Assembly (NCBI GenBank): GCA_020137815.1
Contig: CM035351.1
Coordinates: 2,790,001 to 2,854,000 of the forward strand
Direction of reading: 5' to 3'
Length of the DNA: 64,000 nucleotides
Source: Hormiphora californensis
Taxonomy: Eukaryota; Animalia; Ctenophora
Shown here: one piece after another, positions 1-63,058 of the stretch
Layout of the letters: each line of letters starts with the position of its first letter
Position numbering within the stretch: the stretch's first letter is position 1
Notes under the pieces: generated by a model
Seen by the model: only the letters and a program-made list of their open reading frames with translations
Told to the model about the DNA's origin: nothing
Database searches by the model: none
Made by a program: the position numbers and the translations under genes

Positions 1-18364
<18,364 letters not shown>

Positions 18365-28394: not shown

Positions 28395-28461
28395 AAAAAT
28401 ACACATAGCCCCGCACTGACAGCCGTTTATTCTGAATTTATTACCAGTTTAGAGTTTCTCT

Positions 28462-28497
<36 letters not shown>

Positions 28498-28609
28498 CAC
28501 CTCCAGCCACGTGGAGGTGAAAAAAAAAAAAAAAAAAAAATTAGAGAAACTCTAAACTGGTAATAAATTCAGAATAAACGGCTGTCAGTGCGGGGCTATG
28601 TGTATTTTT
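28395..28609. repeat. Near-perfect ~215-bp palindrome (foldback MITE) with poly-T/poly-A arms
   Basis: AAAATACACATAGCCCCGCACTGACAGCC...T-run-CACCTCCA / TGGAGGTG-A-run...GGCTGTCAGTGCGGGGCTATGTGTATTTT. Confidence 0.9.
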
Positions 28610-28764
28610 GTTATCTAATTATTTCTTACATAACCAGTAGTGAACTGCCCCTAGAAGTATGCCCCAACCTAAATAGTTGGGTACTGTTTACCTCCCTAAA
28701 TAATTACACCAGCAATACATGTAACAGTAAGGCGGGCAGTGCAACAATGAATTTCTGATAGAAA

Positions 28765-28923
28765 TACTAACCCGATCTGATCCTCCCAAATTGTAGCATT
28801 GTTCAAATGTATCACGTTGCAGTATCTATAGAAATTTTCTATTGATCTACTGCAACCCGGGACACATTTGAATTAAACAATGAAACAATTGATGAGATTT
28901 AGGAGGATCAGATCGGGTTAGTA
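28765..28923. mobile_element. TA-flanked hairpin MITE
   Basis: TACTAACCCGATCTGATCCTCC / GGAGGATCAGATCGGGTTAGTA with an imperfectly self-complementary interior. Confidence 0.75.
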
Positions 28924-28991
28924 TTGGGAGAATTGCTGTCCACCCACTGTCAGGACAATGCTCTGACACCCCCCCAGTATATAATACTCAC

Positions 28992-39791: not shown

Positions 39792-42095
39792 CAGAGACAG
39801 AGACAGAGACAGAGACAGAGACAGACATAGGGGTGGAAACAGAAAGAGATATGATATATTATAAAACTAACCTTGATCCAGCAACCTCTTGGGCCGTTTC
39901 ATCACTTTTATTTCTCCGTGTTATGTCAACCTGACTGAAAGATAACAACCACCTCACAAAGGATAGGTGTCCAAACTTGCACGCAAAATGTAGAGGTGTC
40001 TCACCGCACTAAAAATGGGAGGTGGTTCAGTATCACGCAAAGGTTCCCTTGCCTTGTTCTACCCTAGCTGCCTCACAAAGGAGGGTTTGAACATAACATA
40101 GGTACACACATACACACAGACGACTCTCTCGCTCTAGCAGATTTATGGACAATTCAATCTTTTATTCGCTTCCTAAAAAAGAGGTGTATAATTAATGCAG
40201 CCTTTATGTCCTCCATGTAGCCTAACAATCTTTCCAAACACCCTACTAACCCCAATGTTAACTAACCCCAATGTTAACTAACCCCAATGTTAACTAACCC
40301 CAATGTTAACTAACCCCTTTATCGCTTGTGTTAAAATAGCAATCAATAACAATTGATCTTCTCTCCAGATGAGCTGAACTCTGAACGTCCTCACTCGGAT
40401 ACAACTTCCTCCAGGGTTCATCGCTCAGCAAGTAGGCCATTATCCTCTCAGCTACCTCCAGATTACCTGTAAAATGTACACCGTTACCCTTAGTAACACC
40501 TTTGTAACACCTTAGTAACACCTTTGCAACACCTTAGTAACACCTTAGTAACACCTTAGTAACACCTTAGTAACACCTTTGTAACACCTTAGTTCAGATC
40601 TTGCTCTCTCTATCTCTCTCTCTCTCCCTTCTGAGAACACCAAAGAGCATGAAGGGTGCAAGAATTACACCGGTGAAGTTGGGATATATTTTGGGAAACT
40701 TTCCCCGGGAAAAAAAGATAAGCAATCGAACGATAGAGGTGTAGATTTCAGTTGGTGGTTTTTAAAATAGGCACCTCTCAGTACATTAGGGACATCAATA
40801 CAAGAAGAATGTGGATAGATCGAGTGAAGAGGAACAGTATATTGTTTCGACTCTTATAGTACCACCCACCTAACTTTGCAGCACAGTGTAAAGCATTGTA
40901 ATGACATGCTTGTTGGAGCGTTACTGGCTTGTCATATGCAGAAACCAGGTACCTTGGGTTATCTCTCATACACTGTTCTACCGTCTGGGAGGGGTTAGGT
41001 GGTTAGATCACGTGGTTAGGTGGTTAGATCACGTGGTTAGGTGGTTAGATCTTCTCCTGGTTTAACAATATGATGGATTAAAATAATGATATGAGAGCTT
41101 AGGTAGGAGAGTGAATTATGAGAGTATGAGAGAGAATTGGAACTGTTTCACTTCTCTGTTTCACTTCTCTGTTTCACTTCTCTGTTTCATTAAAACAATG
41201 CAGGCGTGACTGGTAGTGCTTGGAAAGGAAATGAGGTACACAACTATATTGAAACACACTGTAAATACACACACGCCTCTGTGTGAGGGTCAGAGACTAT
41301 AATTGGTGTATGTATTCTAGGTAGATCGGTAGGACTAATTGTGGCATAACGGACCCCGATTTACCAGGAAAAATCCTTTCCCCGAACATCCCGGTAAATC
41401 GGGGTCCGACTGTCTAATAATGATCTTACCTCCATATCCGCCTTTTCGATGGCCTGCTTGAATCTGCTGAGTTCACGGGTAGGAACTGAGGGGCATGCCT
41501 TTACAGAGAGAGTCTCCTCTCCAAACCCTGATCTCTGTAAAATATGGTGTGTAAGATATAGAACGGTAGTCACGTGATATAGAACGGTAGTCACGTGATA
41601 TAGAACATGGTGTCACGTGGTGTAGGGAATTGCTATCCCTGGCCTGATAGAATTCGATTTTGTTTCATACCACTCTCAGGACCATATTACAATATCACAG
41701 AGGGTGGGGGGAGGTGGACTCACAAAGTTGAGAGATCTCTTTCGAGCAGGCGACTTTTCTGTGTTTTCCTTTAGGAATGTCCGGACCCGCCTGACCGGGC
41801 TGTCCAGATGACCTGTCTCAGCGTAGAGACGTGCTTCTTGTTCACTGCCAAACCTCTGGAAAGGGTGGGGAATTCAGGGAGGGTGATTTATTATAGAAGT
41901 TTAAATGGGGCTCTAAATTCTCAAGAAGTAATGGGGAAGTCAAAGAGAAATTCTGATGAAGATCAACTCTCGAGAAGGTAAGGGCGTGGTTTAATTTACT
42001 TTCACGTCAATCCTTATAAAGTTCGGCTGGGATCTTACACCACTGACATAATCATTCTACTCAGTACTCTCTCATATAATATTATCTTCTCTTTT

Positions 42096-45686: not shown

Positions 45687-45727
45687 TTTCAAACTTTTCA
45701 ACACTACTTTAAACAAATTAATTTGAG
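45687..45727 (+). other. Ctenophore spliced-leader exon sequence at the LINE 5' end (copy 1)
   Basis: TTTCAAACTTTTCAACACTACTTTAAACAAATTAATTTGAG, identical to 50575-50615; matches the ctenophore SL as I recall it. Confidence 0.85.
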
Positions 45728-45748
45728 GTGCGGCATCCTCCACCTCAA

Positions 45749-47062
45749 ATGATTTCAGAAGATATGTCCTCTACAAATACAACTGAGGAACAACTGCGGA
45801 TAATCTCGGAGCTGGTAGCTGAAGCGGATACCCCTGTCAAGGAGGTGCTCCAAGCCTATGATCCTGAGTTAACCTATGAGGAGATGCTACCGAAGATCGA
45901 AACACTCCCTGTAAGTGACCTAGAGGCTACTGCAGCTTTCCTCGGACAAGAGGTGACATGTGTGACTGGAGCGAAAAAATACCACTCAGAGAGAACACTG
46001 TCAGACTGGATTATCATGAGGACTGAGGCTCTCTTTCCCCAAACATGTAGAGAGTGTAGTGAATCCTATACGGTGAAAAGGACTGATACACCCCCCGTTC
46101 GGTGTAACTATTGCGATGCTGGACTTCACAACTGTGCGGCTATCCGTGCTGAAGCTGGGAACACAACCAACACAAGGAGCCGAATATGGATGTGCAACGA
46201 CTGTGTCTCAAAACATACTATTGAGAGGTTCAACAGTCACCTACCTGAGGGAGGTCCTCCAAACCCTACTCTTAATTCAACTCGACGCAGTTCAAATAGA
46301 GAGGTATTGGACAGAAGGACCAGTCAGCCTGCTGGCGGACGGAACGATCTTGCTGGCAGAAGGAATAATGGCCCACCTACCGGTGGAGATACAGGGTCGG
46401 ACACGGAGGTTTGTAAATTCTACCTGCAGAGGAGATGCCGACACGGCAAAAACGGAACCGCCAGGGTTGGAAACAGAACCTGCCCAAAAGCCCACCCCAC
46501 CCTGTGTAAAAAGTTCTGTAACTATGGAACCATGAGGAGATTTGGATGTAATACTGAAAATTGCAACCTATTTCATCCTCCCCTCTGTAAGAACTCAGAG
46601 TTACGTCACCAGTGCTTCAAACAAAACTGCATGAAGCAACATCTAAAAGATACTCAGCGGAGCCCGCCTTTTAGAGTTGATGAAGCACCCCGGAACACTG
46701 GTTTAAATGCTCGCAATGATCGTGACAGAAACCAATCCTCTCGGAGCAGGGGTGCAAACCAAGCACCTCCAAATGAACCAGGAATCTGGTCGTCTGAGCC
46801 AACTAGGGATAGGATACCAAGCAGATCCCAATGGCCTCAGGATCAGAACAGGGGCACGAGGCCTGACCCAGACCCGGCTTTTTTAGACGCCATCATCGAC
46901 CGTCTCAGGGACTCTATAGCCGGGATAGTGAGGATGGAAATGAGGAATCGCCCGGAGCGGGAGCCCGACCAACAGCACTACAGCTCCCAGCCGACCCAAC
47001 TCCCTCCAGGAATGGGCAACACATACAGTCCTCATCATCAGAGGGACAGACGGTCTTACTAA
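45749..47062 (+). CDS. LINE ORF1 (PHD-like Cys cluster plus CCCH-type zinc fingers)
   Basis: CRECSE..CNYC..HNC..WMCNDC; CKFYLQRRCRHG..CPKAHP..CKKF..C..FHPPLC; homologous to 50660-51958. Confidence 0.85.
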   Translation: MISEDMSSTNTTEEQLRIISELVAEADTPVKEVLQAYDPELTYEEMLPKIETLPVSDLEATAAFLGQEVTCVTGAKKYHSERTLSDWIIMRTEALFPQTCRECSESYTVKRTDTPPVRCNYCDAGLHNCAAIRAEAGNTTNTRSRIWMCNDCVSKHTIERFNSHLPEGGPPNPTLNSTRRSSNREVLDRRTSQPAGGRNDLAGRRNNGPPTGGDTGSDTEVCKFYLQRRCRHGKNGTARVGNRTCPKAHPTLCKKFCNYGTMRRFGCNTENCNLFHPPLCKNSELRHQCFKQNCMKQHLKDTQRSPPFRVDEAPRNTGLNARNDRDRNQSSRSRGANQAPPNEPGIWSSEPTRDRIPSRSQWPQDQNRGTRPDPDPAFLDAIIDRLRDSIAGIVRMEMRNRPEREPDQQHYSSQPTQLPPGMGNTYSPHHQRDRRSY

Positions 47063-50000
47063 ATACAGCAGGACCCTCAGTTCCCAGTAATCTCTCAAAA
47101 CTGTTGCTTCTAAACGCCCGTAGCCTGAACCCGTCTGCGGGCAGTGAGGCAAGGTTCAAACTGGAGAACTTGAAGGACACCATTATGAACTCAAATATTC
47201 CTGTCATGGCTGCAGCCATCACGGAAACTTGGTGGCGGGCAGAATACTCGGACGCACAGGTTAATATTCCTGGTTTTTCTGTCATCCGCAGCGATCGGGA
47301 AGGTAGGGTTGGGGGTGGCTGTGCCCTCTATCTCCACTCGTCGGTGACCCCTTCCGATCAGATCACATTTTGGGGGGGGGCCTGCCGCAAGAATCTCATG
47401 CCTCATTGGCGATTTTCAGGGTAGCTGGGATTTTTGAGATTTTCGATTTTTGGCTAAAAAACGTGGGATTTTTGAGATTTTTGAGGCAAATTTGCGATTT
47501 TTCGGGGGGAAACCGCAAATTTTTCTCAAAAATCTCATAGAAAGGAAAAATTTCGATTCGAAAATTTGGAATAGAAACAATCCTTGTGTTTTTTTACCGA
47601 AAATCAAAATTCTGAATAGAAATTTTCCTTGTGTTCTAGTACAAAAGTTAATGTGAAGCTAAAACATGAAATCTACCTATTTAAATTACTAAACTGATAT
47701 TATGATTCAGTTTTAAGTTAAAAAATATGTCAAAAAACTGAGTATTGGCGGCCAAAATTGTGCCAATTTACCACAAAAATCTCAAAAATCTCAAACGTAA
47801 TTGAGCAAATTTTCCCAAAAATCTCAAAAATCTCATCGGCCGAAAAGAGGGTAGCTGAGATTTTTGCGGCAGGCCCCCCCCCCATTTTCAGATGAAAGCA
47901 ACAGTGTTGTGGCGGTATACATTCCAAACATGAACTGTATTATCTCGTCAGTTTACAGGGCTCCCACAGTGCCTGTGAACCTAGTTCTTGGGATTTTGGA
48001 GGAATTTATCCCGCGTCACTCGTGTGAAGATTGTCCTCCAGATGTGTTTACGCTTGGTGACTTTAACATGCCTCAGGTAAACTGGACATCAGTATCAGCG
48101 GATCAGGGAAATGCTCTGGTTGACTTTGCTGAGAGAAATTTCCTTACCCAGTTGGTTACAGAGCCTACTAGAGGACGGAACATTTTAGACATTGTACTTA
48201 CAAACAGGGTGGATTATGTTTTTGACACCGATGTATCAGCCACCCAGATGTCGGACCACTCCATGGTGTCTTGTGTCCTCGGAATCGGGATCCACCAGTC
48301 CAAAACAGAACGTGCAGCAGCTGGAAGAGGATTCAAGGCCCTTGACTACCACAACGCAGATTTTACTGCTGCAGGAGAGGAGCTGAGCAGTATTGATTGG
48401 GACACACTCCTATCCTCTTGTATTTCAGACGATGATGGGCACTCAATTGTGCAGTGTATCAGAGAGAAGATACTAGAGGTATTTGAAAAACACAGCAAGA
48501 GAAAGAGGTTTGGTACCCAGAGAAAGAGAGATCCCTACCTGAGAAGACTGAAAAGGAGGCAGAAAAAGCTGAACTCTCGGATGAAACTGGCCAAGCAGAG
48601 ATGCTCACACCAGTCCCTCATCGATAAACTCGAACGCAAGATAGACAAGACAGCCGATAAGATTAAGGCGTACTTGTTAGGCCTGCTGGAAGTAAAGGAG
48701 AGGAAAGCCATTGACACTATCAAATCAAATTCACGGTTTTTCTGGTCCTTTGTCAACAAGCACCGAAAAATCAAATCGAGTGTGGCTCCACTCCTGAGAC
48801 CTGATGGTACAGTGACTGATGACCCTCTGGAAAAGTCAAATATTCTCCAGTCGCAATATGTAGGAGTATTCAGTGATCCGTCCATGTGCTCGGTTGAGGA
48901 GGCTATCAAGGACATTCCTTCTACGACCTGCACGCTAGATGAACTTGACTTCACCCCTGGTTGTATTGAAGCTGCACTGGCTGAATTGGACCCCTACGCT
49001 GGAGCACCTTCAGATGACATACCTGCGGTTATACTATCAAAGTGCCGGAAACAGCTAGCATACCCACTTTGGTTGCTCTGGAACCGTTCATTCACTGAGG
49101 GTGTTGTACCAGGTTGTCTCAAACGGCAACAGGTGACCCCAATTTTCAAAAAGGGTTCAAAGATGGAGGCTAAAAACTATCGCCCTGTTGCCCTCACATC
49201 CCATATGATAAAAACTTTTGAAAGGGTTGTGAGGAACAAAGTTGTGGATCACCTGGAGGGAAATGGAATCTTCAATGATGGTCAGCACGGCTTTCGGAGA
49301 AATAGGAGTTGTCTGACCCAACTTTTGAACCACTATGACAACATCATGCGTGAACTGAATAACGGTCTGGAAGTGGATGTTGTTTATTTGGATATGGAGA
49401 AGGCGTTCGATAAAGTCGATATCAAGGTTGGATAAGTGACTTTCTTTCAGCTAGAATACAGACAGTAGTGGTGGATGGAGTTCAGTCTCGGCCGGAACTC
49501 GTCATTAGTGGAGTCCCCCAGGGCACTGTTCTTGGCCCGCTTCTGTTCTTGGTTTATATGATAGACATTGAATCACTTCTTGCTGGAACAGTCCTAACTT
49601 TTGCAGATGACTCCAAGCTGTGGAAAGCGATCAGGTCACTCAACGACAGAGATAACCTGCAGCTGAGTCTTAATGAATTTGGACGTTGGGCTTCAGACAA
49701 CAATATGTCACTCCATCAGGATAAGTTTGAGGTGATAAATTATACACTTCGCTCCACCCAACTCCTGAGGGAGCTTCCTTTCTCCACTGACAATTATCTT
49801 TACAATGGTCCCGGAGGCGAGACAATATCACCAAGTTTCACTGTGAGAGATCTAGGGGTCCTTGTATCTGCAGACTGCACTTGGTCAGAACACATAGGCA
49901 GCATTACTGCCAAGGCTAGACGCATGAGTGGCTGGGCACTTAGTGTATTTCGGGATAGATCCGATGATACTATGCTAACGTTACTGAAGTCCATCATTAG

Positions 50001-50541
50001 GCCTCAGGTGGAGTACTGTTGTCCATTATGGAGCCCGGTGAAAAAGTCTGATATCGCCCTGGTTGAAGAGGCTCAAAGACACTTCACACGTAGGATTGAG
50101 AGCTGTTCCGGCATGGGGTACTGGGATCGGCTCCAACATCTTGGTATCTTGTCCCTCCAGCGGCGTCGTGAGCGATACATGATTATCCATGTCTGGAAGG
50201 TTCTTCATGAGGTAGTTCCAAACGGCACGGGTCTCCTGTTTACTGAGCACACCCGTCTTGGTACCAGAGCATTGGTCCCCCGTTACAATTACCTCGCTCA
50301 AAAATCCATATCTGGCCCTTATGACTCATCATTCGGTGTTAGAGGAGCACAGTTGTGGAATTCCCTACCCCGTGCAGTGAGAGAGGCAACATCACTGCTC
50401 GAGTTGAAACAGTCCCTTGGGTCCTACTTAACCACCATCCCCGACCAGCCACCTGTCCGCGGTTACCGGGTGGAGCACAGTAACTCCTTAATTGATTGGA
50501 GAAATGACCCCAGTGTGTTTAAAGAGATGGGCGAATCATAG
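47063..50541 (+). pseudogene. LINE ORF2 (APE endonuclease plus RT), disrupted
   Basis: LNARSL, ITETW, LGDFN, SDH, NYRPVALTS, QHGFR, SGVPQG, FADD; broken by the MITE at 47372-47882 and a ~49-nt deletion at ~49427 relative to the inner copy. Confidence 0.92.
47372..47882. mobile_element. MITE with G-run/C-run termini inserted in the LINE endonuclease
   Basis: G9-CCTGCCGCAAGAATCTC / GAGATTTTTGCGGCAGG-C-run; duplicated CATTTT (CACATTTT / CCCATTTT); removal restores Q-I-T-F-S-D. Confidence 0.9.
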
Positions 50542-50574
50542 AAATGTGTTTTGCTTTTCATTGTCATTTGGCTG

Positions 50575-50615
50575 TTTCAAACTTTTCAACACTACTTTAA
50601 ACAAATTAATTTGAG
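50575..50615 (+). other. Ctenophore spliced-leader exon sequence at the LINE 5' end (copy 2)
   Basis: 41/41 identical to 45687-45727. Confidence 0.85.
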
Positions 50616-50659
50616 GCGCGCGCCCGTGCGTTTTCAAATATTCCACTGTAGTGTCTAGT

Positions 50660-51958
50660 ATGGCAATGGACCATGCTAATGACACAGATCCAGCCGTCTT
50701 TGCTGCTGTACTCTCTGAGCTGAAAGAGGATGCCAGAACACCGGTTAAGGAGGTTATTGAAGTTTATGACCCTTCTCTGGACTATGAGGAAAACCTCAGC
50801 AAACTGGAGGCTATCCCAGCTAGTAATCTGGAGGCAACTGCTATCTTCCTTGGCCAAGAGGTTAGATGTGTGGCGTCTGGAGTGCAGAAATACCATTCAG
50901 TAACAACCCTGGCTGACTGGATCATCATGCGGATAGAGGGATTTGGTCCCCAAACATGCAGCGAGTGTACCGAAAAGTATTCCGTGAAGAGAAATGAAAA
51001 TCCCCCTGCTCGGTGCTTCATCTGTGGTGGCGGTCTGCACAACTGTGCTAAGATACGAGAAGAGGCCAGCAGCACTGCTATCAAAAGCCGAATTTGGGTG
51101 TGCTCCCCTTGCCTCGGTAAACAAACTCTGGAAAGGTTTACTAGCCATCTACCTGACGGTGGTCCAGATCCTAGTCATAACTCGACCAGACGTAGTTCAA
51201 ACCGAGAGCAGATCCTGGGAAGGCACATCAGCAGAACTGCAGAGGAACGAGAGGACCTACCGGACCCAGCGGAACAGGGAGAGAGGGTTGTTCCCGGAAA
51301 CGAAGTGTGTAGGTTTTATTTGCAAAGGAGGTGCAGACACGGGAGAGATGGGACGAAGCTAGTTAGTGGCAGATCTTGTCCCAAATCTCACCCTACACTG
51401 TGCAAAAAGTTTTGCAACTATGGATCTATGAGGAGCGTTGGATGCCAGAACACTGAATGTAACTTTTTCCATCCTCCACTATGTAAGAATTCTGAGTTAC
51501 GGCACCAGTGTTATAAACTCAGCTGTACCAAACATCACTTGAGGGACACCCTGAGGACTAGGCCTGGAGAAGGAACATCACGTGGGACTGGAAATGAGAG
51601 GAACCGCCGTGAAAGAATCCCTTCAGCCCAATCACGAACCACAGGTCAAAACCAAGCACCTGATGCAGGACCTTGGTCAAGTGAACCCAGTAGGGCGAGG
51701 GTGTCGAGTGGAGTCCAATGGTCCCAGTCTCAGAATCAGAGACCTGGACCAGATGCTGCTTTTTTAGAGGCAGTCCTCGATCGGCTGAGGGACTCAATAG
51801 CCGGGATAGTGAGAACAGAGATGAGGAATCGTCCAGAGCCAGAACCAGTTCTACTTCCAGACCAGTTATACTCCCAACACACCCAACCGGCTCAACTGCC
51901 GGCAGGAACAGGTTACACCTTCAGCCCTCATCAGCAGAGGGGGAGACGGTCGTATTAG
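50660..51958 (+). CDS. LINE ORF1
   Basis: Same Cys/His pattern as copy 1; ends RRSY*. Confidence 0.87.
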   Translation: MAMDHANDTDPAVFAAVLSELKEDARTPVKEVIEVYDPSLDYEENLSKLEAIPASNLEATAIFLGQEVRCVASGVQKYHSVTTLADWIIMRIEGFGPQTCSECTEKYSVKRNENPPARCFICGGGLHNCAKIREEASSTAIKSRIWVCSPCLGKQTLERFTSHLPDGGPDPSHNSTRRSSNREQILGRHISRTAEEREDLPDPAEQGERVVPGNEVCRFYLQRRCRHGRDGTKLVSGRSCPKSHPTLCKKFCNYGSMRSVGCQNTECNFFHPPLCKNSELRHQCYKLSCTKHHLRDTLRTRPGEGTSRGTGNERNRRERIPSAQSRTTGQNQAPDAGPWSSEPSRARVSSGVQWSQSQNQRPGPDAAFLEAVLDRLRDSIAGIVRTEMRNRPEPEPVLLPDQLYSQHTQPAQLPAGTGYTFSPHQQRGRRSY

Positions 51959-51999
51959 CTTCCGAGAAACCCTCAGTTCCCAGCAACCTTTCCAAACTT

Positions 52000-54958
52000 A
52001 TGCTGCTAAATGCTCGCAGTCTAAACCCGAGTGCTAAGTAGCGAAACAAGGTACAAGCTGGAGAATCTTAAAGACACTATTTGCAACTCTGATATTCCTG
52101 CCATGGCCGTAGCCATTACTGAAACTTGGTGGCGGGCTGAATTTTCAGATGCCCAGGTGGGTATCCCCGGTTATTCTATTATACGCAGTGATCGGGACGG
52201 CAGGGTGGGGGGTGGCTGTGCCCTATATCTTCATTCATCCTTGTCCCCCTCTGATCAGGTTGCTTTCTCAGATAACTGTAATAGTGTCGTTGCAGTCTAC
52301 ATTCCTAACTCAAACTTCGTTATTGCAACAGTTTACAGGGCCCCCACATCAAACCCACTCCAAGTCATCGGAATCCTGGAGGAGTTTATTCAACGCCATT
52401 CCTCCGGTGATTGTCCGCCTGAGGTTTTTGTGCTAGGTGACTTCAATATGCCCCATGTAAACTGGTCAAATCTTCCAACCGACCAGAGTAACTCCCTGGT
52501 TGAATTTGCTGAGAAAAATTTTCTTACCCAACTAGTGACGGAGCCCACGAGAGGTAAGAGTATCTTGGACATTGTTCTTACGAATAGAGTGGACTATGTC
52601 CTCGACATGGATGTAACGGCGACCCAAATGTCTGACCACGCTCTCGTTTCTTGCATTCTGGGAGTTGGGCTGAAACAGGCTAAGTCAGACTGCAAACGAG
52701 CTGCTAGAGGGTTCAAGGCACTTGATTACCACAATGCTGACTTCACCGGGGCACGTGAGGAGCTAGACGCTATCAACTGGGACGAACACTTAGCTCCATA
52801 TGACATGGAAGATGGCGGCCACGCCTATGTCCAATGTATTACAGAGATTGTTCTAGGCGTGTTCGAAAAGCATTCTAAACGGAAGGTTTTTAGCAATTTA
52901 AAGAAGAGGGATCCCTATCTGAAACGATTGAAAAGGAGGCAGAAAAAGTTGAACTCCCGGCTAAAACTTGCTAGGGAGAGATGTTCCTACCAGTCCCTGA
53001 TTGATAAGCTTAACCGTAAAATTGAGAAGACTGGTGATAGGATAAAGGTTCACCTCCTTGGGCTTCTGGAAGGAAGAGAGAGAAAGGCTATTGACACTAT
53101 CAAATGTAATCCACGGTTTTTCTGGTCATTTGTGAACAAGCATCGGAAAATCAAGTCTAGTGTGGCCCCACTCCTAAGACCTGATGGCACAGTTACCGAT
53201 GATCCCCTGGAGAAATCAAACATTCTTCAGTCACAGTATGTGGGGGTATTCAGCGATCCTGCTAAGTGTTCGGCCGAGGAGGCTACTAAGGATATTCCTT
53301 CTACGACCATCACACTGGACAATCTTGACTTTACTCCCGGCTGTATTGAGGATGCATTGGCTGAGTTAGATCCTTACGCTGGAGCACCACCAGGGGACAT
53401 ACCAGCGGTTATACTGTCCAAGTGCCGGAAACAGTTGGCATACCCCTTATGGTTACTTTGGGATTGTTCTTTCCATGAGGGTGTCGTACCAACATGCCTT
53501 AAACGCCAATATATAACACCCGTGTTTAAGAAAGGATCCAAAATGGAGGCAAAAAATTATCGGCCTGTCGCACTCACCTCCCACATGATTAAAACATTTG
53601 AGAGAGTTGTAAGAAACAAAGTTGTCGATCATCTGGAGGGAAATGGGCTCTTCAACGATGGCCAGCATGGTTTCCGGAGGAACAGAAGCTGCTTGACTCA
53701 ACTCTTAAACCACTACGATAATGTCATGAGAGAACTGAATAACGGACACGAAGTGGATGTTGTGTATTTAGACATGGAGAAGGCTTTTGACAAAGTCGAT
53801 GTCAAGGTCTTGATGGCAAAATTGGAAAAATACGGTATTCGGGGACAGCTACACCGTTGGATCAACAACTTCCTTTCAGAAAGAGTACAAACAGTGATGG
53901 TAGATGGTGCTCAGTCTCGGGAGGAATTGGTCATCAGTGGTGTCCCACAGGGTACAGTTATTGGTCCCTTGTTGTTTTTAGTCTATATGATAGACATAGA
54001 GACACTTCTTTCTGGCACAGTCCTCACCTTCGCAGACGATTCCAAGCTGTGGAAGGCAATCAAGTCATTGGATGATAGAGAGGATCTCCAGAAAAGTCTA
54101 GCTGTGTTTGCTCGTTGGGCGACAGATAACAACATGTCCCTACACCAGGACAAATTTGAAGTTATGAACTATACTCTTCGCTCCACCCAACTGTTAAGAG
54201 AGCTGCCATTCTCCAATGAAAACTACTCCTACAGTGGGCCTGGAGGCGAAACGATATCCCCTAGCGAATCTGTCAAAGACCTAGGAGTCCTTGTTTCAAC
54301 AAACTGTGCATGGTCGGAGCATATCGGCAGCATCACGACTAAGGCTCGTCGGATGAGTGGCTGGGCACTTAGTGTGTTTCGGGATAGATCGGATGACACC
54401 ATGCTAACCCTACTCAAATCCATCGTCAGACCCCAGGTTGAATACTGTTGCCCCCTATGGAACCCTGTCAAAAAGTCAGATATTGCACTGGTTGAGGAGG
54501 CACAGAGACAATTCACCCGCAGGATCGCGAGTTGTTCGGGCATGAATTACTGGGACAGACTCCATCACCTCAAAATCCTGTCCCTTCAACGGCGCCGAGA
54601 ACGATATATAATTATCCACGTCTGGAAGGTCTTGCATAAGGTAGTACCAAACAGTACGAGTCTCTTGTTTACAGAGCACCCACGCCTTGGCACCAGAGCG
54701 GTAATCCCTCGGTATAACTACTTGGCCCAAAAATCCATCTCTGGCCCCTATGACTCATCATTCGGCGTAAAAGGAGCTCAGTTATGGAATGCAGTGCCTC
54801 GGGTAGTGAGATCTTCAGCTTCCCTACTCGAGCTAAAGCAGTCGCTCGGTAAATATCTGTCCACCATCCCTGACCAGCCACCGGTTCGTGGGTATAGTGT
54901 TCAGCACAGTAACTCCCTGTTGGATTGGAGAAACGATCCGAGTGTTTTCAGAGAGTAA
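52000..54958 (+). CDS. LINE ORF2 (APE plus RT) with one apparent 1-nt insertion at ~52037
   Basis: MLLNARSLNPSA then a frame change to SSETRYKLE; the 975-codon ORF that follows is intact with FADD, YCCPLW and LSLQRRRERY. Confidence 0.92.
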
Positions 54959-55317
54959 ATCATTCAGGGGTGTTTTGCTTTTCTATGTTGTTTGGCTGCC
55001 CACTAAAACCCGATTCCTTTTGGTGTCTGAGTGTTAGCTCTTTTTGAGCTGAAACTTTGTGTACAATGCTTAATTTATTTATGAATGTTTATGAATGTTT
55101 ATAACCTGCTGACTTTCCATGTCATCTGAGTGTTGGCTCCTTTTGAGCTAAAGCTTTGTGTACAATACTAAATTTATTTACGAATGTTTACGAATGTTTT
55201 ACGAATGTAAAAAGTAACCAATAAACAAATCTATTTACATAAATGTAGTTATTTCACAAACAAAAATAAATGGTTGAGATTGTACAAAACTATCTTTTAG
55301 TAAACCTTGTAATGTTT

Positions 55318-55869
55318 CTACAAGGTTCCTTTCTGTAGTGCCACGATTTTTCTCTTTTTCGCATTTAATAGTTCGACACACCGTCCCAACAGATCCCTCT
55401 GAATGTTGTTACATTCAACAACTCGATCACTGAGCACTGCTTCAAGATCCGCTTTGGATTTTTGGCAATCATTCAAACTGTCTTCAGTCTCCCGAAGAGC
55501 GGTTGAATTTTCTGAATTTTCAATGAGCATTCGATTTATAAGGGCTGTTGCTGCAGACAAGGTAAACTCCTGAGACGGTATCAAAGTGAACTCAGCCCAG
55601 GTTATAGAGGATGAATCATCTTCAATTTCTTCGCTGAATGTAAGTGTTTGTTCGGCACATGACCATGAAAACTCAGAGTCAGTTGAACGGATTTTACCCC
55701 ATAGTTCATCCAGTGAAGTACCCGTTAAGAATGGAGATGTTGCTTCTAATTTGCCCTCATGTTTTTCACCGTTGATATATCTCTCCACTATAATACTGTC
55801 TCCCTTCAACTGTAAAACGACGGGCTCGCCAGATTTCGTTTGTTTAACTATGTAACCACTGAGATCCAT
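55318..55869 (-). CDS. XRCC4: XRCC4-like NHEJ protein, single exon, short
   Basis: Beta-rich head, coiled coil and the ligase-IV-binding-like motif DLLGRCVELLNAKKRKI. Confidence 0.72.
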   Translation of the reverse strand: MDLSGYIVKQTKSGEPVVLQLKGDSIIVERYINGEKHEGKLEATSPFLTGTSLDELWGKIRSTDSEFSWSCAEQTLTFSEEIEDDSSSITWAEFTLIPSQEFTLSAATALINRMLIENSENSTALRETEDSLNDCQKSKADLEAVLSDRVVECNNIQRDLLGRCVELLNAKKRKIVALQKGTL

Positions 55870-56650
55870 AGCCTGGAAATATGAAATATTTTAGTCTGAG
55901 GAGATTAGATAAAGTTTGTTTGAAGGAACTACCGACAACGTGGAATTGAAATATTAAATAGGAGTCGGCACCGGGCACTCTGGTCACAGCAGACTTGCCA
56001 GATTTAGTTTAAATTTGGTTATTTTTCTTTTTAACATTTCAAGTGTGTTCTCAGCTTACTTTGGGAAACATCTCAGCCCATTAACAACGCTAAATTTGGT
56101 TTATTTTGATTTTGGAGACTCCGTAGTAGTTTTTCAAAAAGTGACGATCGGTTTTTCAAAATTTTTAATTTTTATTTATTTGGAAAATTCAAATTCAAAA
56201 TTTACATAAACAACGAAATTCGCGCGGCTTTATATTTGCGCGTTAATCTCGCGCGTTACATCGACTTCATTAAATTTGACTCAATTATTGTAATTGACTG
56301 TTGGAAAACAGGGTAGTGAGTCGCCAGACAGATCAAATGAAATAAAATCTATACACTTCTTTCATTAATTGGAAAAATTATTTACACCAATTTCAAATCT
56401 GTACAGTTACATCTGTAAAATACTTCAGTCCTTCACGTACAGCCACTGCCACTGCCAGAGGTCTGAGTCCTGAGAGTCTCACACTCAACTGTCTCACTCG
56501 AGACTCTCAGTCACTGAGAGACTCACTCACACTGAGATTGAGTCTCTATCTTAACTTACATATGTATTTACAACTGCAGTTACAAAATACTGTTCCACTA
56601 ACCACTTTGTTGAGTTTATTCAGCAAGTTCCACTGTTCATGTTTCCATCC

Positions 56651-59600
56651 CTATTGGACCTTTCTCGATAAACTTGGTGACTTCGGCACGAGATACTTGG
56701 TGGAAGATTTCTTAATCCTCTGGATGTTAACTTTAAGGTAGATAGGTTCTAAAACTCGACCAAAGAACCGTGGCTCTGTCACATCTGAGATCTGAACAAC
56801 ATACATTCCCGGAGCACCGAACTTTAGAAGATCCTTGTCCCTCTCTGCCCTTGCTCCCTGGACCCTCCATCTGTCCCTCTCCTGAAGGGGGGATTATTAC
56901 TGTCATAGACGGTATTGAAAACCACCGAGATTGTTGCTGAGCTGTACAGTAGGGGTTGCTAAGTTGAAAAATATCGCTTTCGAACATTATGTCTGGTATT
57001 CAGTAGGTAATTTTCTACTGATATCCGAAGTTTCAGCCCAAACGGTTGAGCCACTTCGAATCGCAAGCGACTTTCATAACCCGCGTTTTTGCGTAAATAA
57101 TGAGAATTTTAGGGATAATGAAGTCAATGGAGCACTATATTTTGTATACCTTGCTGTATACTCAAAATATCGCTTTCGAACATTATGTCTGGTATTCAGT
57201 GGGTAATTTTCTACTGATATTTGAAGTTTCAGCCCGAACGGTTGAGCCACTTTGAATCGCAAGCCACTTTTGTGACCCTTATTTTCGGTGAAAAATCGGG
57301 CAAAAATCGGGAAAAAATTTTGAAATTTTAAAATTTTAAAACACGGAAATTAGTCCCTAGAACATCCCAATACATGTGCAACATTTTAAAATTGTGTATT
57401 TTTGATTTTCAACTTAGCAGCCCTACCGACATAATATAAGTTTGAACAGGGTAATGGACAATGGTAAAACTTATACCATCTGGGGCCCGGGCGTCTGAAT
57501 TTGTTGAGTCATCACTCTAGCCCCCCTAACATTACGTCTAAGTTTTATACCACCCACACTCACATCAGGGGTAGCAGATCTGTCCTTGCGACCCGGTGCC
57601 GGGCTGTTCTTTCCCTTCTTCTTAGCTTTTGGTTTTGCTTCCTCCGTCTGTTCAACCTCCTCGTCTTCTGAATCAACTACCTCCAACATCTCGTGACCTG
57701 CAGGATAATGTTTAGTAGAGGGTGGTAGTAATACTAGACACTAGTTGCTTAAAGATAATGCAGCAAGATCAGATTCATTTCATCAAATTAGAAGGGTACT
57801 TTTTTTTTTACATCAGCTAAGTAATCAGGCATCAAGCAATATTTCGACGCCCATCTGCCAATTCGATGACAGAAGCCCATGCAACAGGATCAGGTTACCA
57901 TGCAGTGACTTACCCGCGTTAGGATTGACAAATGTGAACGCTGGGATATAAATTGTTTGTTCTGCCGAACCCTCAAAATACAATGTGAGCTACACAATAA
58001 ATTATATGACCCTCACTGTACATCAAATAAATTAGGATACATTTTCTATTGATCCATTGTTCTAACCTGGAATAACAACATTGGTCCAGGAGGCGTGTCC
58101 ACAGTGTGTTTTGTGGTCGGTAGTGGTCGGTTGGGGGCTTGGCAGGCGGATATATTCGTACCCTGATCGACTTACCGGTCTCTCCTGAAAGGGGCGTATT
58201 GATTATGATGCTATTTGGTATTATCATACCACTCAGCTGCTTCAATCATGCAAGTGTTTTTTGTTGTTGCTCAACAAAGTGTTTTAGGAATTTGGTCCTC
58301 ATACTCATAGGCCTTTTCACATAGCTAAACGACTATTTTATCAGCGGTTAGCCACGACTGTCCCCGCACGTCCAGGCCACCTACTCCCAGTCCCTATCAT
58401 CCATTGCGGCAGAGCTGTCAGGCAAATGCTCTGACAACAGCAGACGGAATCACACATCTGACTCCCACACTCACAAAATCACATGCAAGTTGATTGTCAC
58501 GGCGCGCAGCAACAGAAACACCTTTCCATCCACCTCTTTCATCACACCAAGTACCACGCGCGTTACTGTAAGTGCGAGTTTGGGACAAAATATTGTGACA
58601 TTGTGACAAACAACATCTGTCAAAATCCTTGGAATGTTCGTTTATTTTCCCCATTTCACTGAAGACTTCGTGAGTGGTGTTGTACTATGCACGGTGCCCC
58701 TGAAGGACGTTCCACCTCGACCGAGCCCCCCAAAAAAACGAACGGTTGTGTGACCTAAAGGGGACCTCTGGGAACTACGCAGGACCGTGGGGGAAAATAT
58801 ATCATAGTAGCCTAAGGAGAAAATCGCATTTTCCCTCACACTGGCCAAATTCTACATTCCACACTTTCAAATCTTATTTTTTCGGCCAAAATCAAGTCAC
58901 CCTAGGGTTTTTTGACACGCCGAATCGATTGCCGCTGGAATTGGAACTCTAAATCCACGGCAACATTGTTAAAATGGCGTTTTTTGGGGTTTTTTTGCGC
59001 TTTTTTGCCCTGAACTGCATTTATATGACGAGTGAGACTTCTGACTATATTTTTAAAGTGTTCCTCGGTCGATTTTCTTCCCGATTCCAAATTTTTGTGA
59101 AAATCGGTTACCAAGTAGATAAACTGTTAAAAATACAGCACTAATGAAAAATGACTGTTTCAGATGAGAACAATGTGACGCTCATACCTTTCCAAGTAGA
59201 TCTCTTCCCAGGCAAGAAACAGTGCTACTGGTCGATCAAAACATGACTTCTACATTCCCTAGAGGATAGGAGGGAGTGGAACATGGTGAGTACAAAATTA
59301 AAATTGATTGCCAAGTTACATTAATTGTTAGACAGGATTAAATGTACGCAACCGGGTATAAAAAATTAAAAGTGTAAATGGTATAGTCATAAATAGTTTG
59401 TAATGCTGTGAGTCTATACATGAGAAGCGTTATAAGCTAGCCCCGCTCTTCCCAGCTGCAGTTTGTAGTGGGGCGAGGTCATGTTGTTCACTTTGTAGTT
59501 GGACCACAGTGCATTCCAACTAGAATGTGCGTTCTCCAGCTCCTGCTCGGAGAACATCCCTAGAGGCCTACCCAAGTTATAATCTATGAACTCCTCCAAA

Positions 59601-62600
59601 TGTTCCTCAATGATGTGGAACTTGGTGGTGGTGGATGTTCCATAGTAGGCCCTAAGTGTGGAGAGGCAATCCCTGAACTCCTGTATTGCCGACCTGTATC
59701 CTGATTGGAGAGAGGGTGGTAGATGCTACATTCGGACCATGATTTAGTGGCACCCCAATTTAGTGGCATCCCGATTTAGTGGTCAAAACCCTTTCCCGCA
59801 AGGATGTCCGAATGTAGCATCTACCACCCTCTCTCCAATCAGGATACAGGTCGGCAATACAGGAGTTCAGGGATTGCCTCTCCACACTTAGGGCCTACTA
59901 TGGAACATCCACCACCACCAAGTTCCACATCATTGAGGAACATTTGGAGGAGTTCATAGATTATAACTTGGGTAGGCCTCGACTAGGGATGTTCTCCGAG
60001 CAGGAGCTGGAGAACGCACATTCTAGTTGGAATGCACTGTGGTCCAACTACAAAGTGAACAACATGACCTCGCCCCACTACAAACTGCAGCTGGGAAGAG
60101 CGGGGCTAGCTTATAACGCTTCTCATGTATAGACTCACAGCATTACAAACTATTTATGACTATACCATTTACACTTTTAATTTTTTATACCCGGTTGCGT
60201 ACATTTAATCCTGTCTAACAATTAATGTAACTTGGCAATCAATTTTAATTTTGTACTCACCATGTTCCACTCCCTCCTATCCTCTAGGGAATGTAGAAGT
60301 CATGTTTTGATCGACCAGTAGCACTGTTTCTTGCCTGGGAAGAGATCTACTTGGAAAGGTATGAGCGTCACATTGTTCTCATCTGAAACAGTCATTTTTC
60401 ATTAGTGCTGTATTTTTAACAGTTTATCTACTTGGTAACCGATTTTCACAAAAATTTGGAATCGGGAAGAAAATCGACCGAGGAACACTTTAAAAATATA
60501 GTCAGAAGTCTCACTCGTCATATAAATGCAGTTCAGGGCAAAAAAGCGCAAAAAAACCCCAAAAAACGCCATTTTAACAATGTTGCCGTGGATTTAGAGT
60601 TCCAATTCCAGCGGCAATCGATTCGGCGTGTCAAAAAACCCTAGGGTGACTTGATTTTGGCCGAAAAAAATAAGATTTGAAAGTGTGGAATGTAGAATTT
60701 GGCCAGTGTGAGGGAAAATGCGATTTTCTCCTTAGGCTACTATGATATATTTTCCCCCACGGTCCTGCGTAGTTCCCAGAGGTCCCCTTTAGGTCACACA
60801 ACCGTTCGTTTTTTTGGGGGGCTCGGTCGAGGTGGAACGTCCTTCAGGGGCACCGTGTATGTGATTGGGGAGAGTCACGTGATCGGTCTGAGAGGCCGGC
60901 TCATGTGACATCCACCCAAAGGGTTACACATAGTACAACAGTGGGCCTGAAAAGCTCAACACGTGCAGATTTATAAGTGGGCTCCACTAATAGAAGGAAT
61001 CAGAAAAAAGGTCATCAGGGAACTCAAGAGATTTAAAATAGATTCAGTTTATTAAAATCAAGTGCTGGTTGACTGTTACCTTGTCATCTATAACAGGGCT
61101 CTCAGTACCCTGATCTACTACTACTGTAGCAGCCTGGGGTTAGCAAACAGATATGAATGGAGTGGTTTTATAACAACCAATACCTCCCTAACCTCCCAAT
61201 ATATTATCATGATTATGATATAATATCCTGGCCTGATCCCGACTTGTCCATACCTTTACACAATGTCAACTTAATTCCAACCACCCTGTACAGCAAGGGG
61301 GAGACCCCCATGTTACCTTTTCAGGGATATCCTCGTAATCAGTTTGTCTGGTACGGGGTGTCACCTCAGCTAGGTTCACCAACTTCACATCCCCGAACGG
61401 AGTGGTGAAGGTTGGAGCAGTGTCGGCCAGTTCCGGGCGCACTTTTGTACTCTTGTCCGCCGCTACAGTGGGGAATTGGGATTCAAAAAGCTTGCTTTTT
61501 TTGTGGGGAGATGAGTTAACACAGAAAATACATTACATGAAGGGTTGGACAGAAAGCATCTCTTGAACGGTATGTTGTCTACTTACGTGCGGAAAGAAGT
61601 CCAGCTTTAGTTTGTAAAACTCTCCCACTATCTCCCTCCATAACATCTCCACTGCTGTGCAAAACAGCCACCTCTGAAATGGGAGATTGTGAGGGGCTTC
61701 ATGTTGCATCTTGATATAATGTGAGCTACTTCATTCTTCATCATAACCGGATAATAACCGCGACAACTATCATTTGTAATACTGAAAAGTATTTACAATA
61801 CCGATAGTAAGATAGTACATACCGATAGAAAAAGGTTCTCCCTGAAAGACCTCTATCTCAGAAGCTCCCACAAGAGCCATACCACAAGCGAACTCTTCAG
61901 GCGGAATCTCATTGTGTATCCACAGACCACTGTACGTTATCCCTGTGGAACCAATGAGTAGTTCAAACAAAACTAGTGAACAACAACATAAATGTAGCAA
62001 GATCAGGGAAAGCTTCGTTGCAAATTTTGTTCCCATTATATACCTGTGCAGTGTATGTAAGTGCCCTGTCCTTGTTTCAGGCCATGATTGAATTGTCCAT
62101 CGTAAGTGCTTCCATCTGCGAATGTCATGTTACCATGACCATGTGGTTTATCCGACACCCACCCTCCCTCATACTTCCTGCCATCAGCCCACACCTAGAG
62201 AGGTACAGGTGACTGTTAGGAAGAGGTCTGAGAACTAGGCGCGAGTCCAGACTCCTGATAATTTGATAGTAATTGAAATCAAAATACGGGTGTTGCAACA
62301 CAACGATGAACGATATAATGTTTGCAGTTAGTTATCACGCCTAAGGAGATCCTATTTTTACCTGTTCCCCATCGCCATGTCGTTTGTGAAGGTGAAACTG
62401 TCCAGTAAAGATGTCCCCACTGTCACTCAACAACATTCCATTCCCCTCGTACTTATTCTCTAGCCACTGACCCTCGTACCTTCTCCCATCACCATACTTC
62501 ATCTGCCCCTTCCCACTCAGCTCACCCATTTCAAACTCTCCTAAAACGAGTCTGATTATCAAAATAAGTCGTACAAGTGTTATATTACCATGGCGTGTAT

Positions 62601-63058
62601 TTGATGTATTTTCAGTTGCCATGCTGACAATCTTTTTCTGCAAAGTTTTAGGAACATTTTGACAAACCAGTGTAAAAGTTTCCATTGCTCCAGGACCGTT
62701 CTCCTCTCCCAGTTATTTCCCCGTTATTAAAATCACCCTTATAGTATCCCCCATCTCTCATCTGGAGTGTTCCTTTGCCGTGCTTCACACCTGGAAACAC
62801 GCGGTTACAGGAACAGAATTTTACTTGCCTTGGTCGACCCTCTCTCTCTCTCTGCCCCCGGGTTTGAACAAAACATAGATTTACAATTCATATGGACCAC
62901 TTGATTTTGTATATACAATGTCACGTACCTTCGATCCATGAGCCGTCATATGAAAAGAAGGAATTGTGGTAATTGTACTTTCCCTGACCGTGTCTGATCT
63001 GGTTCACAATTTGTCCAACATATTTTCCGGGTTTTTCAGATTTATCGGCAGTCGGCAT
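56651..63058 (-). CDS. MORN1: MORN repeat-containing protein 1
   Basis: Multiple MORN repeats (YEGQW..GNG), GDSGRVLQTKAG and C-terminal PGMYVVQISDVTEPRFFGRVL. Exons: 63058-62929, 62790-62737, 62540-62362, 62193-62044, 61942-61823, 61673-61587, 61462-61365, 61133-61080, [unresolved small exon(s), possibly 57940-57914], 57697-57477, 56881-56651. Confidence 0.82.
56950..57425. mobile_element. MITE in a MORN1 intron
   Basis: TAGGGGTTGCTAAGTTGAAAA / TTTTCAACTTAGCAGCCCTA; internal ~105-bp direct duplication; no clear TSD. Confidence 0.7.
59414..59700 (-). pseudogene. Chapaev/Transib-like DDE transposase terminal exon (left arm)
   Basis: Reverse complement of 59843-60132 lacking one codon. Confidence 0.8.
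59843..60132 (+). pseudogene. Chapaev/Transib-like DDE transposase terminal exon (right arm)
   Basis: After acceptor CCAATCAG: YRSAIQEF..TTKFHIIEEHLEEF..LGMFSEQELENAH..W..YKV..YNASHV*. Confidence 0.8.

What the first reader, a model, noticed from the sequence alone, without database searches (positions are those of the whole stretch)
58674..60944. Triple-nested structure: a Chapaev 3'-end palindrome folded at one MITE and then transposed into another
Seen: ~1.05-kb arms are near-perfect inverted copies (differences noted: CGA insertion at 59980-59982 and one A-run). The 68-bp spacer (59738-59805) is the interior of a MITE whose end TACATTCGGAC is mirrored on both sides with the same variant base relative to TACAGTCGGAC-type copies. 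The outer ends CACGGTG are flanked by a direct TATG, and removing the element restores a perfect 14-bp TIR of a TGT..ACA MITE with its own GTGG TSD. Known: Chapaev elements have CAC termini and 4-bp TSDs. Inference: MITE-primed fold-back created a two-right-ends element that was still mobilisable, a concrete route to foldback elements.
Basis: partly seen in the sequence, partly recalled or inferred. Interest (0 to 1): 0.7.

Follow-up and report, generated by a model that had tools for sequence, protein, structure and literature searches.

The report
Chapaev palindrome hinged on nested MITE
A 2.2-kb transposon fragment in this genome is a near-perfect mirror image around a tiny second transposon, likely because faulty DNA repair replaced its front half with a reversed copy of its back half; mirror-image transposons of this kind are known, and nothing yet shows that this one has jumped since it formed.

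Summary
The anatomy is confirmed. A 2,168-bp element (58690-60857; CAC…GTG) has arms of 1,048 and 1,052 bp with no substitutions and two indels, a 68-bp spacer and a direct TATG duplication. It sits in one end of a 91-bp TGT…ACA element that has its own GTGG duplication. Each arm carries the C-terminal ~100 codons and 3' end of a Chapaev-type transposase. Public contigs show a multi-copy family whose dominant form is not folded: it runs through an intact ~100-bp TA-flanked MITE with two different ends. This copy lost 13-14 bp of the MITE's right repeat and carries a mirror of its left end instead. The MITE is therefore the hinge, and the long inverted repeats are derived. The join is out of register for hairpin priming, and the target duplication does not prove that the palindrome itself moved: repair in place explains it as well. 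The apex of this copy was not verified in reads. Same-end transposon palindromes are known (mariner Rpmar49, Galileo, Mu killer); in my searches of the held library I found no case with a nested MITE as the hinge.

The parts
58690..60857 (.). Palindromic non-autonomous Chapaev-type element with two 3' ends (2,168 bp; CAC…GTG)
58690..59737 (-). Left arm; matches the family's dominant contigs, so probably the original half
   Evidence: table 8 (X1 records 4-8: 0 other letters, 0 gaps)
59806..60857 (+). Right arm; carries both indels, so probably the newly made copy
   Evidence: P0001 lacks the extra codon
59818..60132 (+). C-terminal ~100 codons of a Chapaev-type DDE transposase (K-x-H-x4-H, SEQxxE, stop), with an in-frame 3-bp insertion
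59414..59725 (-). Mirror copy of the same transposase segment, without the insertion
59727..59816 (.). Hinge: TA + left TIR, three ATTTAGTGG repeats and interior of a ~100-bp MITE, then a mirrored 9-bp left end + TA in place of its own right end
   Evidence: intact right end seen as 24 loose letters behind 59806 in X1, X4, X5
59738..59805 (.). 68-bp non-palindromic spacer; junction at 59805-59807
59816..59817 (+). Candidate AG splice acceptor overlapping the MITE's TA (inferred; parent intron not seen)
   Evidence: sequence
59980..59982 (+). 3-bp insertion found only in the right arm
60664..60670 (+). 7-A run (6 in the left arm and in the dominant X1 contig)
58686..58689 (+). Left copy of the 4-bp target duplication TATG
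   Evidence: junction held by a 172-nt contig with 0 differences in X1 and X4, with only 24 letters on the element side
60858..60861 (+). Right copy of the target duplication TATG
58678..58689 (+). First 12 bp of the interrupted left TIR of the 91-bp TGT…ACA host element
60862..60940 (+). Rest of the host element with its 14-bp right TIR
58674..58677 (+). Host element TSD GTGG, left
60941..60944 (+). Host element TSD GTGG, right
61080..63058 (-). Upstream exons of a MORN-repeat host gene whose transcript probably crosses the element (context; gene model across the insertion not resolved)
   Evidence: Pfam MORN at E 4.7e-9 and 2.7e-13 for two exons; candidate exons

Best explanation
The element is a palindrome of two 3' halves of a Chapaev-type transposon joined inside a nested ~100-bp MITE, likely made by a template switch during gap repair that replaced the 5' half with an inverted copy of the 3' half, probably at this very site. 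Inferred sequence of events: a MITE entered a family member at a TA just upstream of the last coding segment, and that form amplified. One copy inserted by ordinary Chapaev transposition into the TIR of a 91-bp element, making the TATG duplication. During repair of a break or excision gap, synthesis starting at the 5' end switched through TIR homology to the 3' end and copied 1.05 kb inward, picking up two indels. It stalled about 9-10 nt into the MITE hairpin and was joined by 1-3 nt of microhomology to the opposite strand, which ended 5 nt into the MITE's right TIR. The MITE acts as the stall and join point. The product has two intact 3' termini and may be mobilisable, but that is untested.
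For: Shown: arms, TSD and restored host TIR. Dominant unfolded form: X1 record 8 (499 nt, depth 731, against 28-54 in the flank) matches 59332-59806 with 0 differences, runs unbroken through the MITE and ends in 24 other letters. Their reverse complement matches the left TIR at 21 of 24 positions (compared by eye) and has G where both window ends have T; the same loose end is listed for X4 and X5. Both indels are in the right arm: the dominant X1 contigs and an independent 61-aa record P0001 have the left-arm state. The mirror stops at the termini and does not extend into the flanks, unlike a read fold-back chimera. Both inner breakpoints lie within the MITE's ~27-bp TIRs but 14 nt out of register. 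Depth drops about 8-fold between bins 58732-58792 and 58793-58853, and contigs leave the sequence at 58815 (3 in X1, 1 in X4); this fits a shared terminal ~125 bp that could serve the outer switch (inference). Precedent: Galileo TIR extension by repair that copies past the opposite TIR (PMC3573991); mariner 5'-by-3' replacement attributed to abortive gap repair (PMC4678618).
Against: The apex junction, the 3-bp insertion and the right TSD junction of this copy were not verified in any read set. The count of contigs that reach beyond the end of the laid stretch can be explained without a junction-bearing contig. The parent's 5' part and natural 5' end were never seen, so TIR homology for the outer switch is inferred. 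Both termini are identical, with no trace of a distinct 5' end. Formation in place and formation elsewhere followed by transposition leave the same sequence. Contig depth is not a copy number, and Logan contigs drop rare variants.
Confidence: 0.5

Rival explanations
1. One reading: a strand ending in the MITE folded back and primed synthesis, giving a large palindrome; Chapaev transposase then cut at the two 3' ends and inserted the piece here. The apex lost 14 bp at priming or later.
For: Breakpoints in the MITE TIRs and the mirrored left-end variant. Clean 4-bp TSD at two 3' termini. Fold-back priming at short inverted repeats is established in yeast and mammalian cells (PMC7999016 section 12). 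Two-3'-end mariner elements have transposed (Rpmar49, 13 independent copies).
Against: In-register priming would keep the inner part of the right TIR, which is missing, so a second event or a 1-3-nt primer is needed. No second copy was found. The dominant contig form is unfolded.
Confidence: 0.3
2. Assembly or sequencing artefact: a real, ordinary family member is inserted here, and its interior was assembled as a mirror by looping through the MITE.
For: Arms belong to a multi-copy family. The apex is unverified in reads. The left junction contig covers only 24 element letters, which any TIR could supply.
Against: The arms differ by a 3-bp in-frame insertion and the apex has a 14-bp loss; neither is in the dominant X1 contigs, so a graph path through collapsed repeats would not produce them. 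The mirror does not include the flanks. The 64-kb window has no N.
Confidence: 0.1
3. One aberrant sister-chromatid transposition used the 3' ends of two sister copies; the inner broken ends were then fused at the MITE, as proposed for maize Ac composite insertions.
For: Ac composite insertions carry inverted fractured Ac ends (10.1101/2020.01.07.897926). Explains the TSD, identical arms, the mirrored variant and an out-of-register microhomology join in one event.
Against: Such events in maize come with flanking duplications or deletions. Here the host TIR and its TSD are restored exactly, and no donor-flank DNA is captured.
Confidence: 0.06
4. The family naturally has ~1-kb TIRs that include this coding segment, or most copies are palindromes with an intact MITE at the centre.
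For: Sequence after the MITE's right TA in the dominant form was not seen, because the contig ends there.
Against: A palindromic majority would fork the assembly graph at the MITE boundary, yet the dominant contig runs through unbroken (inference from graph logic). The arm holds the catalytic C-terminus of a 630-810-aa transposase, and the rest must lie beyond the MITE.
Confidence: 0.04

Closest known systems
mariner Rpmar49 and Rpmar17 of Rhodnius prolixus (PMC4678618; section 13 read)
   Same: 5' part replaced by an inverted 3' part, giving long TIRs with transposase homology and two 3' ends.
   Different: Different superfamily; TIR 221 bp in Rpmar49; multiple transposed copies shown; no nested MITE described at the breakpoint in the section read; origin ascribed to deletion between neighbouring copies.
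Rearranged Dromar MITE sublineages of Drosophila (PMC4161770; passages)
   Same: One end region replaces the other, giving unusually long TIRs; the authors call the origin of these rearrangements elusive.
   Different: Two 5' ends rather than two 3' ends; amplified families; mariner.
Galileo 2RT copies (P superfamily; PMC3573991; passages and part of Discussion)
   Same: Internal sequence recruited into ~1.1-kb TIRs in non-autonomous copies; proposed repair that copies past the opposite TIR.
   Different: Galileo has long TIRs to begin with; recruited DNA is non-coding flank; no MITE hinge in the passages read.
Mu killer of maize (PMC3440606; passages) and Ac composite insertions (10.1101/2020.01.07.897926; abstract and section 16)
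   Same: Two same-end TIRs with ~1.3-kb inverted transposase fragments beside or inside host transcription units; in both papers PCR across the centre failed.
   Different: Plant elements with 5' ends and demonstrated silencing; here 3' ends, a resolved apex in the assembly, and no expression data. The Mu killer paper disputes the long-hairpin model.
Fold-back priming at short inverted repeats (review PMC7999016, section 12)
   Same: Large palindrome centred on a short pre-existing inverted repeat.
   Different: Products there are palindromic chromosomes; here the palindrome is bounded by transposon ends, and the junction is out of register with the repeat.

Membership tests
Chapaev (CMC) | [quoted passage not shown] | tested here: met
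   58690 CAC, 60857 GTG
Chapaev (CMC) | 3- to 4-bp TSD | tested here: met
   4 bp, unique among 2-9 bp, confirmed by the restored host TIR; one site only
Chapaev (CMC) | DDE transposase with C(2)C, LH and H(4)H motifs | tested here: met
   Fragment has H37/H42 and E60, invariant in 19 of 19 aligned rows. C(2)C and LH lie upstream of the fragment and were seen only in homologues (15 and 17 of 17 long hits, loose patterns).
Chapaev (CMC) | N-terminal Chapa (ZAD-like double zinc finger) domain, absent from Transib | tested here: inconclusive
   Not in the element. 13 of 17 homologues of 550 aa or more match a His/Cys pattern that I derived from the alignment and from recall. Sub-threshold zf-AD hits in 4 and RAG1_imp_bd in 1 of 21 proteins.
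Chapaev (CMC) | Clusters with named Chapaev transposases in a tree | not testable with these tools
   No named reference among hits. The profile's only PDB hit below E 1 is RAG1L 6b40_A, E 5e-4, which places it only in the wider Transib/RAG/Chapaev group.
Chapaev3 subgroup | 3-bp TWA TSD | tested here: not met
   3-bp flanks ATG and TAT differ
Transib | 5-bp TSD (example CCAGG in PMC4411706; the general rule is recalled) | tested here: not met
   5-bp flanks differ
Foldback-type mobile element family | Long TIRs | tested here: met
   ~1.05-kb arms
Foldback-type mobile element family | Several copies at different sites, each with its own TSD | tested here: inconclusive
   No genome held; one copy in the window; dominant contig form unfolded
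Tc1/mariner/pogo-type MITE (hinge) | TA TSD and short TIRs (TA for ITm: PMC10045372) | tested here: met
   TA at 59727-59728 and at the end of the parent's right TIR; TIR 21 of 24 identical; very high contig depth over the MITE bin; a related element at 41350-41412
Tc1/mariner/pogo-type MITE (hinge) | Matching autonomous transposase-coding element | not tested
   The pogo-like label rests on recalled TIR motifs
Ginger-type MITE (host element) | TGT…ACA ends and 4-bp TSD (4 bp for Ginger1; TGT termini recalled) | tested here: inconclusive
   Ends and TSD fit, but other TG…CA elements share them; no second copy or autonomous partner seen
Killer locus (Mu killer / Ac killer type) | Read-through transcript gives dsRNA and small RNAs that silence the family | not tested
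   Only the position in a predicted host transcription unit; no RNA data examined

The most novel reading that the evidence does not exclude
A MITE nested in a larger transposon is a repeatable hinge that turns its host into a mobile foldback element with two 3' ends; this one, lying in a host gene's transcript, makes a 1.05-kb hairpin RNA that silences its own Chapaev family, an animal counterpart of Mu killer.
Probability: 0.1. Interest if true: 0.72.

Novelty: new variant of a known kind. Interest (0 to 1): 0.4.

Why it matters
The origin of transposons with one end copied over the other was called elusive in the Drosophila mariner survey, and the centres of Mu killer and the Ac composite insertions could not be amplified. 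Here the apex is resolved to the base in the assembly, the unfolded parent form is visible in public contigs, and the event looks recent (0 substitutions in 1,048 bp). That makes one idea testable: hairpins of nested MITEs fix where repair synthesis turns or stops. It would matter more if the same apex recurred at other sites or if the locus produced small RNAs. As it stands it is one copy of a known class of rearranged non-autonomous element.

Tried and rejected
No whole genome was held, so other copies and the parent could not be searched in the assembly. Pfam and PDB searches with the 104-aa fragment alone found nothing. The word-index search for longer homologues found none among 146 candidates, which is weak evidence. 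A metagenome scan with the protein gave 144 pattern matches and 0 confirmed. A 20-nt terminal pattern gave 3 loci, all GC-rich (61-68%) with no similarity beyond the 20 nt, so rejected as chance. A homologue search to confirm the host gene across the insertion found none among 5 candidates, and the exon phase chain across the insertion was not resolved. Sample S2 (X5, X6) shows many flank differences and no listed contig across the left junction; half depth near the junction in S1 could mean heterozygosity. Neither is used, because holes and depth in contigs prove nothing. The 1-3-nt microhomology at the apex is too short to count as evidence. The protein atlas did not answer. Earlier scan notes: none for this genome or sequence; the 8 shown concern bacterial or giant-virus nested MITEs and do not bear on this. 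Literature searches for a MITE-hinged palindrome: 0 papers with 5 of 6 terms; 0; listings read, none by title or abstract start; the library lacks most subscription papers and Repbase Reports. No supplements were read; those of PMC4678618 and PMC4161770 may give breakpoint sequences that bear on novelty.
Full report
Observation. The sequence and repeat scan show a palindrome at 58690-60857. Alignment of the arms gives 1,048 and 1,052 bp, no substitutions and two indels, both adding bases to the right arm, around a 68-bp spacer. Only a 4-bp duplication fits (TATG; lengths 2-9 tested). Removing the element restores a 91-bp TGT…ACA element with a perfect 14-bp TIR and a direct GTGG duplication. 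The same test gave 0 hits in 30 simulated sequences, and the 3 other hits of 4 in the emptied window have self-complementary or homopolymer flanks.

Identity of the arms. Each arm has an open frame of 103-104 codons ending in a stop, followed by about 725 bp to the terminus. Pfam and PDB do not recognise the fragment alone. phmmer against 1.84 billion representatives found 222 proteins at E 0.001 or better, 150 listed; 98 of the 150 end in the same terminal motif and 17 are 550 aa or longer. In a 19-row alignment K35, H37, H42, L55, E60, Q61, E64 and W74 are invariant. The long homologues show the C(2)C, LH and H(4)H motifs named for Chapaev (PMC4079192, section 14), and 13 of 17 have an N-terminal His/Cys pattern like the Chapa domain, which Transib lacks (10.64898/2026.01.24.700457, passages; PMC4411706, passages). 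A profile of the alignment hits RAG1L (E 5e-4). With CAC…GTG ends and a 4-bp TSD (hallmarks) this is the 3' end of a Chapaev-type element, not Chapaev3 (TWA; PMC3014272, passages) and not Transib. No tree with named references could be built.

The parent form. No genome was held. Six public runs of one organism hold 0.66-0.82 of the words of the region (2 samples, 2 studies), and the best may be the window's own source. Four runs were laid on the left flank, left arm and spacer. In X1 the flank contigs have depth 28-54, the arm contigs 731-1,145, and the summed depth over the terminal ~100 bp and over the MITE is far higher. Depth is not a copy number, but the arm is clearly repeated. The listed X1 arm contigs match the left arm with 0 differences. 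X1 record 8 runs from 59332 through the MITE to 59806 and then carries 24 letters absent from the window, ending in GTCCGACTGTA; the same loose end is listed in X4 and X5. Their reverse complement matches the left TIR at 21 of 24 positions (by eye) and has G at the position where both window ends have T. So the dominant form has an intact ~100-bp MITE with two distinct ends and is most likely not folded, since a folded majority would break the contig at the MITE edge (inference). A related hairpin element at 41350-41412 (z -5.8) shows the MITE type exists on its own. The left insertion junction is held by a 172-nt contig with 0 differences in X1 and X4, with 24 letters on the element side, below the tool's 31-letter bar.

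What is not verified. The apex, the 3-bp insertion and the right junction of this copy were not checked against reads. In one search the number of contigs reaching past the end of the stretch (2, 3, 2, 3) can be accounted for by the flank contig plus the parent-form contigs, so it neither shows nor excludes a junction contig. An artefact remains possible (about 0.1). Against it, the mirror ends at the termini, and the right arm has changes that the dominant contigs and an independent protein record lack.

Mechanism. Shown: the forward sequence stops 5 nt into the MITE's right TIR, and the mirror begins 9 nt into its left TIR. Both points lie in the TIRs but 14 nt out of register, with 1 nt of microhomology (3 with a one-base slip). 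Classical hairpin priming (PMC7999016, section 12) would keep the inner right TIR, so it needs a second deletion. Gap repair with a switch between the element's own ends, as proposed for Galileo (PMC3573991), explains the same product in one repair event: the right arm is the new copy, stalled where the MITE stem becomes perfect, and joined by microhomology. Contigs that share the terminal ~125 bp and then diverge suggest enough end homology; this is inference. In that model the TSD was made by the ordinary parent and the palindrome need never have moved. I put this at 0.5, fold-back followed by transposition at 0.3, artefact 0.1, sister-chromatid transposition 0.06 and natural long TIRs 0.04. 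All but the last two real routes make the MITE the hinge; only a second copy with another TSD separates the first two.

Context. Exons of a minus-strand MORN-repeat gene lie upstream. The nearest candidate exon (61133-61080) ends at a GT donor in an open frame, and further candidates lie beyond the element, so the transcript probably crosses it. That would give a 1.05-kb hairpin and a sense-strand acceptor and stop in the left arm. The model across the insertion is unresolved, and no RNA was examined.

Comparison and novelty. Two-3'-end mariner derivatives that transposed (PMC4678618), two-5'-end mariner MITEs (PMC4161770), Galileo 2RT copies (PMC4168063, passages), Mu killer (PMC3440606) and Ac composite insertions share the architecture. 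I found no description of a nested MITE as the apex, or of such a derivative in Chapaev, in searches of a library that lacks most subscription papers. The superfamily labels for the two MITEs (pogo-like, Ginger-like) rest partly on recall and on TSD lengths in PMC10045372 (passages).

Verdict. Very probably real, recent and well resolved: a new variant of a known kind. The hinge at the MITE is supported; hairpin priming and later mobility are not shown. Interest 0.4.

Noticed in passing
window 41350-41412: 63-bp hairpin element with TIRs and interior resembling the hinge MITE; outer TA bases degenerate.
   Followed up: partly
window 58690-58815: The terminal ~100-125 bp has about 8-fold higher summed contig depth than the arm just inside it, mostly with A>C at 58734, and several other flanks are seen in S2: a large set of short relatives shares this end.
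   Followed up: partly
window 59332-59356: Contig depth steps from ~1,140 to ~730 in X1 (1,494 to 1,083 in X4), suggesting a subfamily that keeps the outer 640 bp and diverges here.
   Followed up: no
window 28395-28609, 28763-28925, 23737-24595: Further palindromes: 215 bp with long T and A runs (86%), 163 bp (73%), and an ~860-bp degenerate array of inverted units (69%). Palindromic elements seem common here.
   Followed up: no
window 8436-11018: Element with inverted ends, short subterminal repeats and two arrays of ~64-bp tandem units (8945-9526, 10150-10647), foldback-like.
   Followed up: no
window 45687-54998: Two head-to-tail copies, 67-74% identical, of what by eye is a non-LTR retrotransposon (Cys-rich ORF1, endonuclease and reverse transcriptase ORF2); the second has a 977-aa open frame. 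Not scanned against Pfam.
   Followed up: no
window 55318-55890 (-): ORF with a weak XRCC4 coiled-coil match (E 0.012, below the Pfam cut-off).
   Followed up: partly
window 56953-57423: 471-bp stretch with 18-bp inverted ends and an internal 122-bp direct repeat, probably another MITE.
   Followed up: no
window 60948-60941 (-): A pyrimidine-rich AG lies just outside the host element's TSD on the host-gene strand, so the nested insertion may sit at an exon start rather than mid-intron.
   Followed up: no
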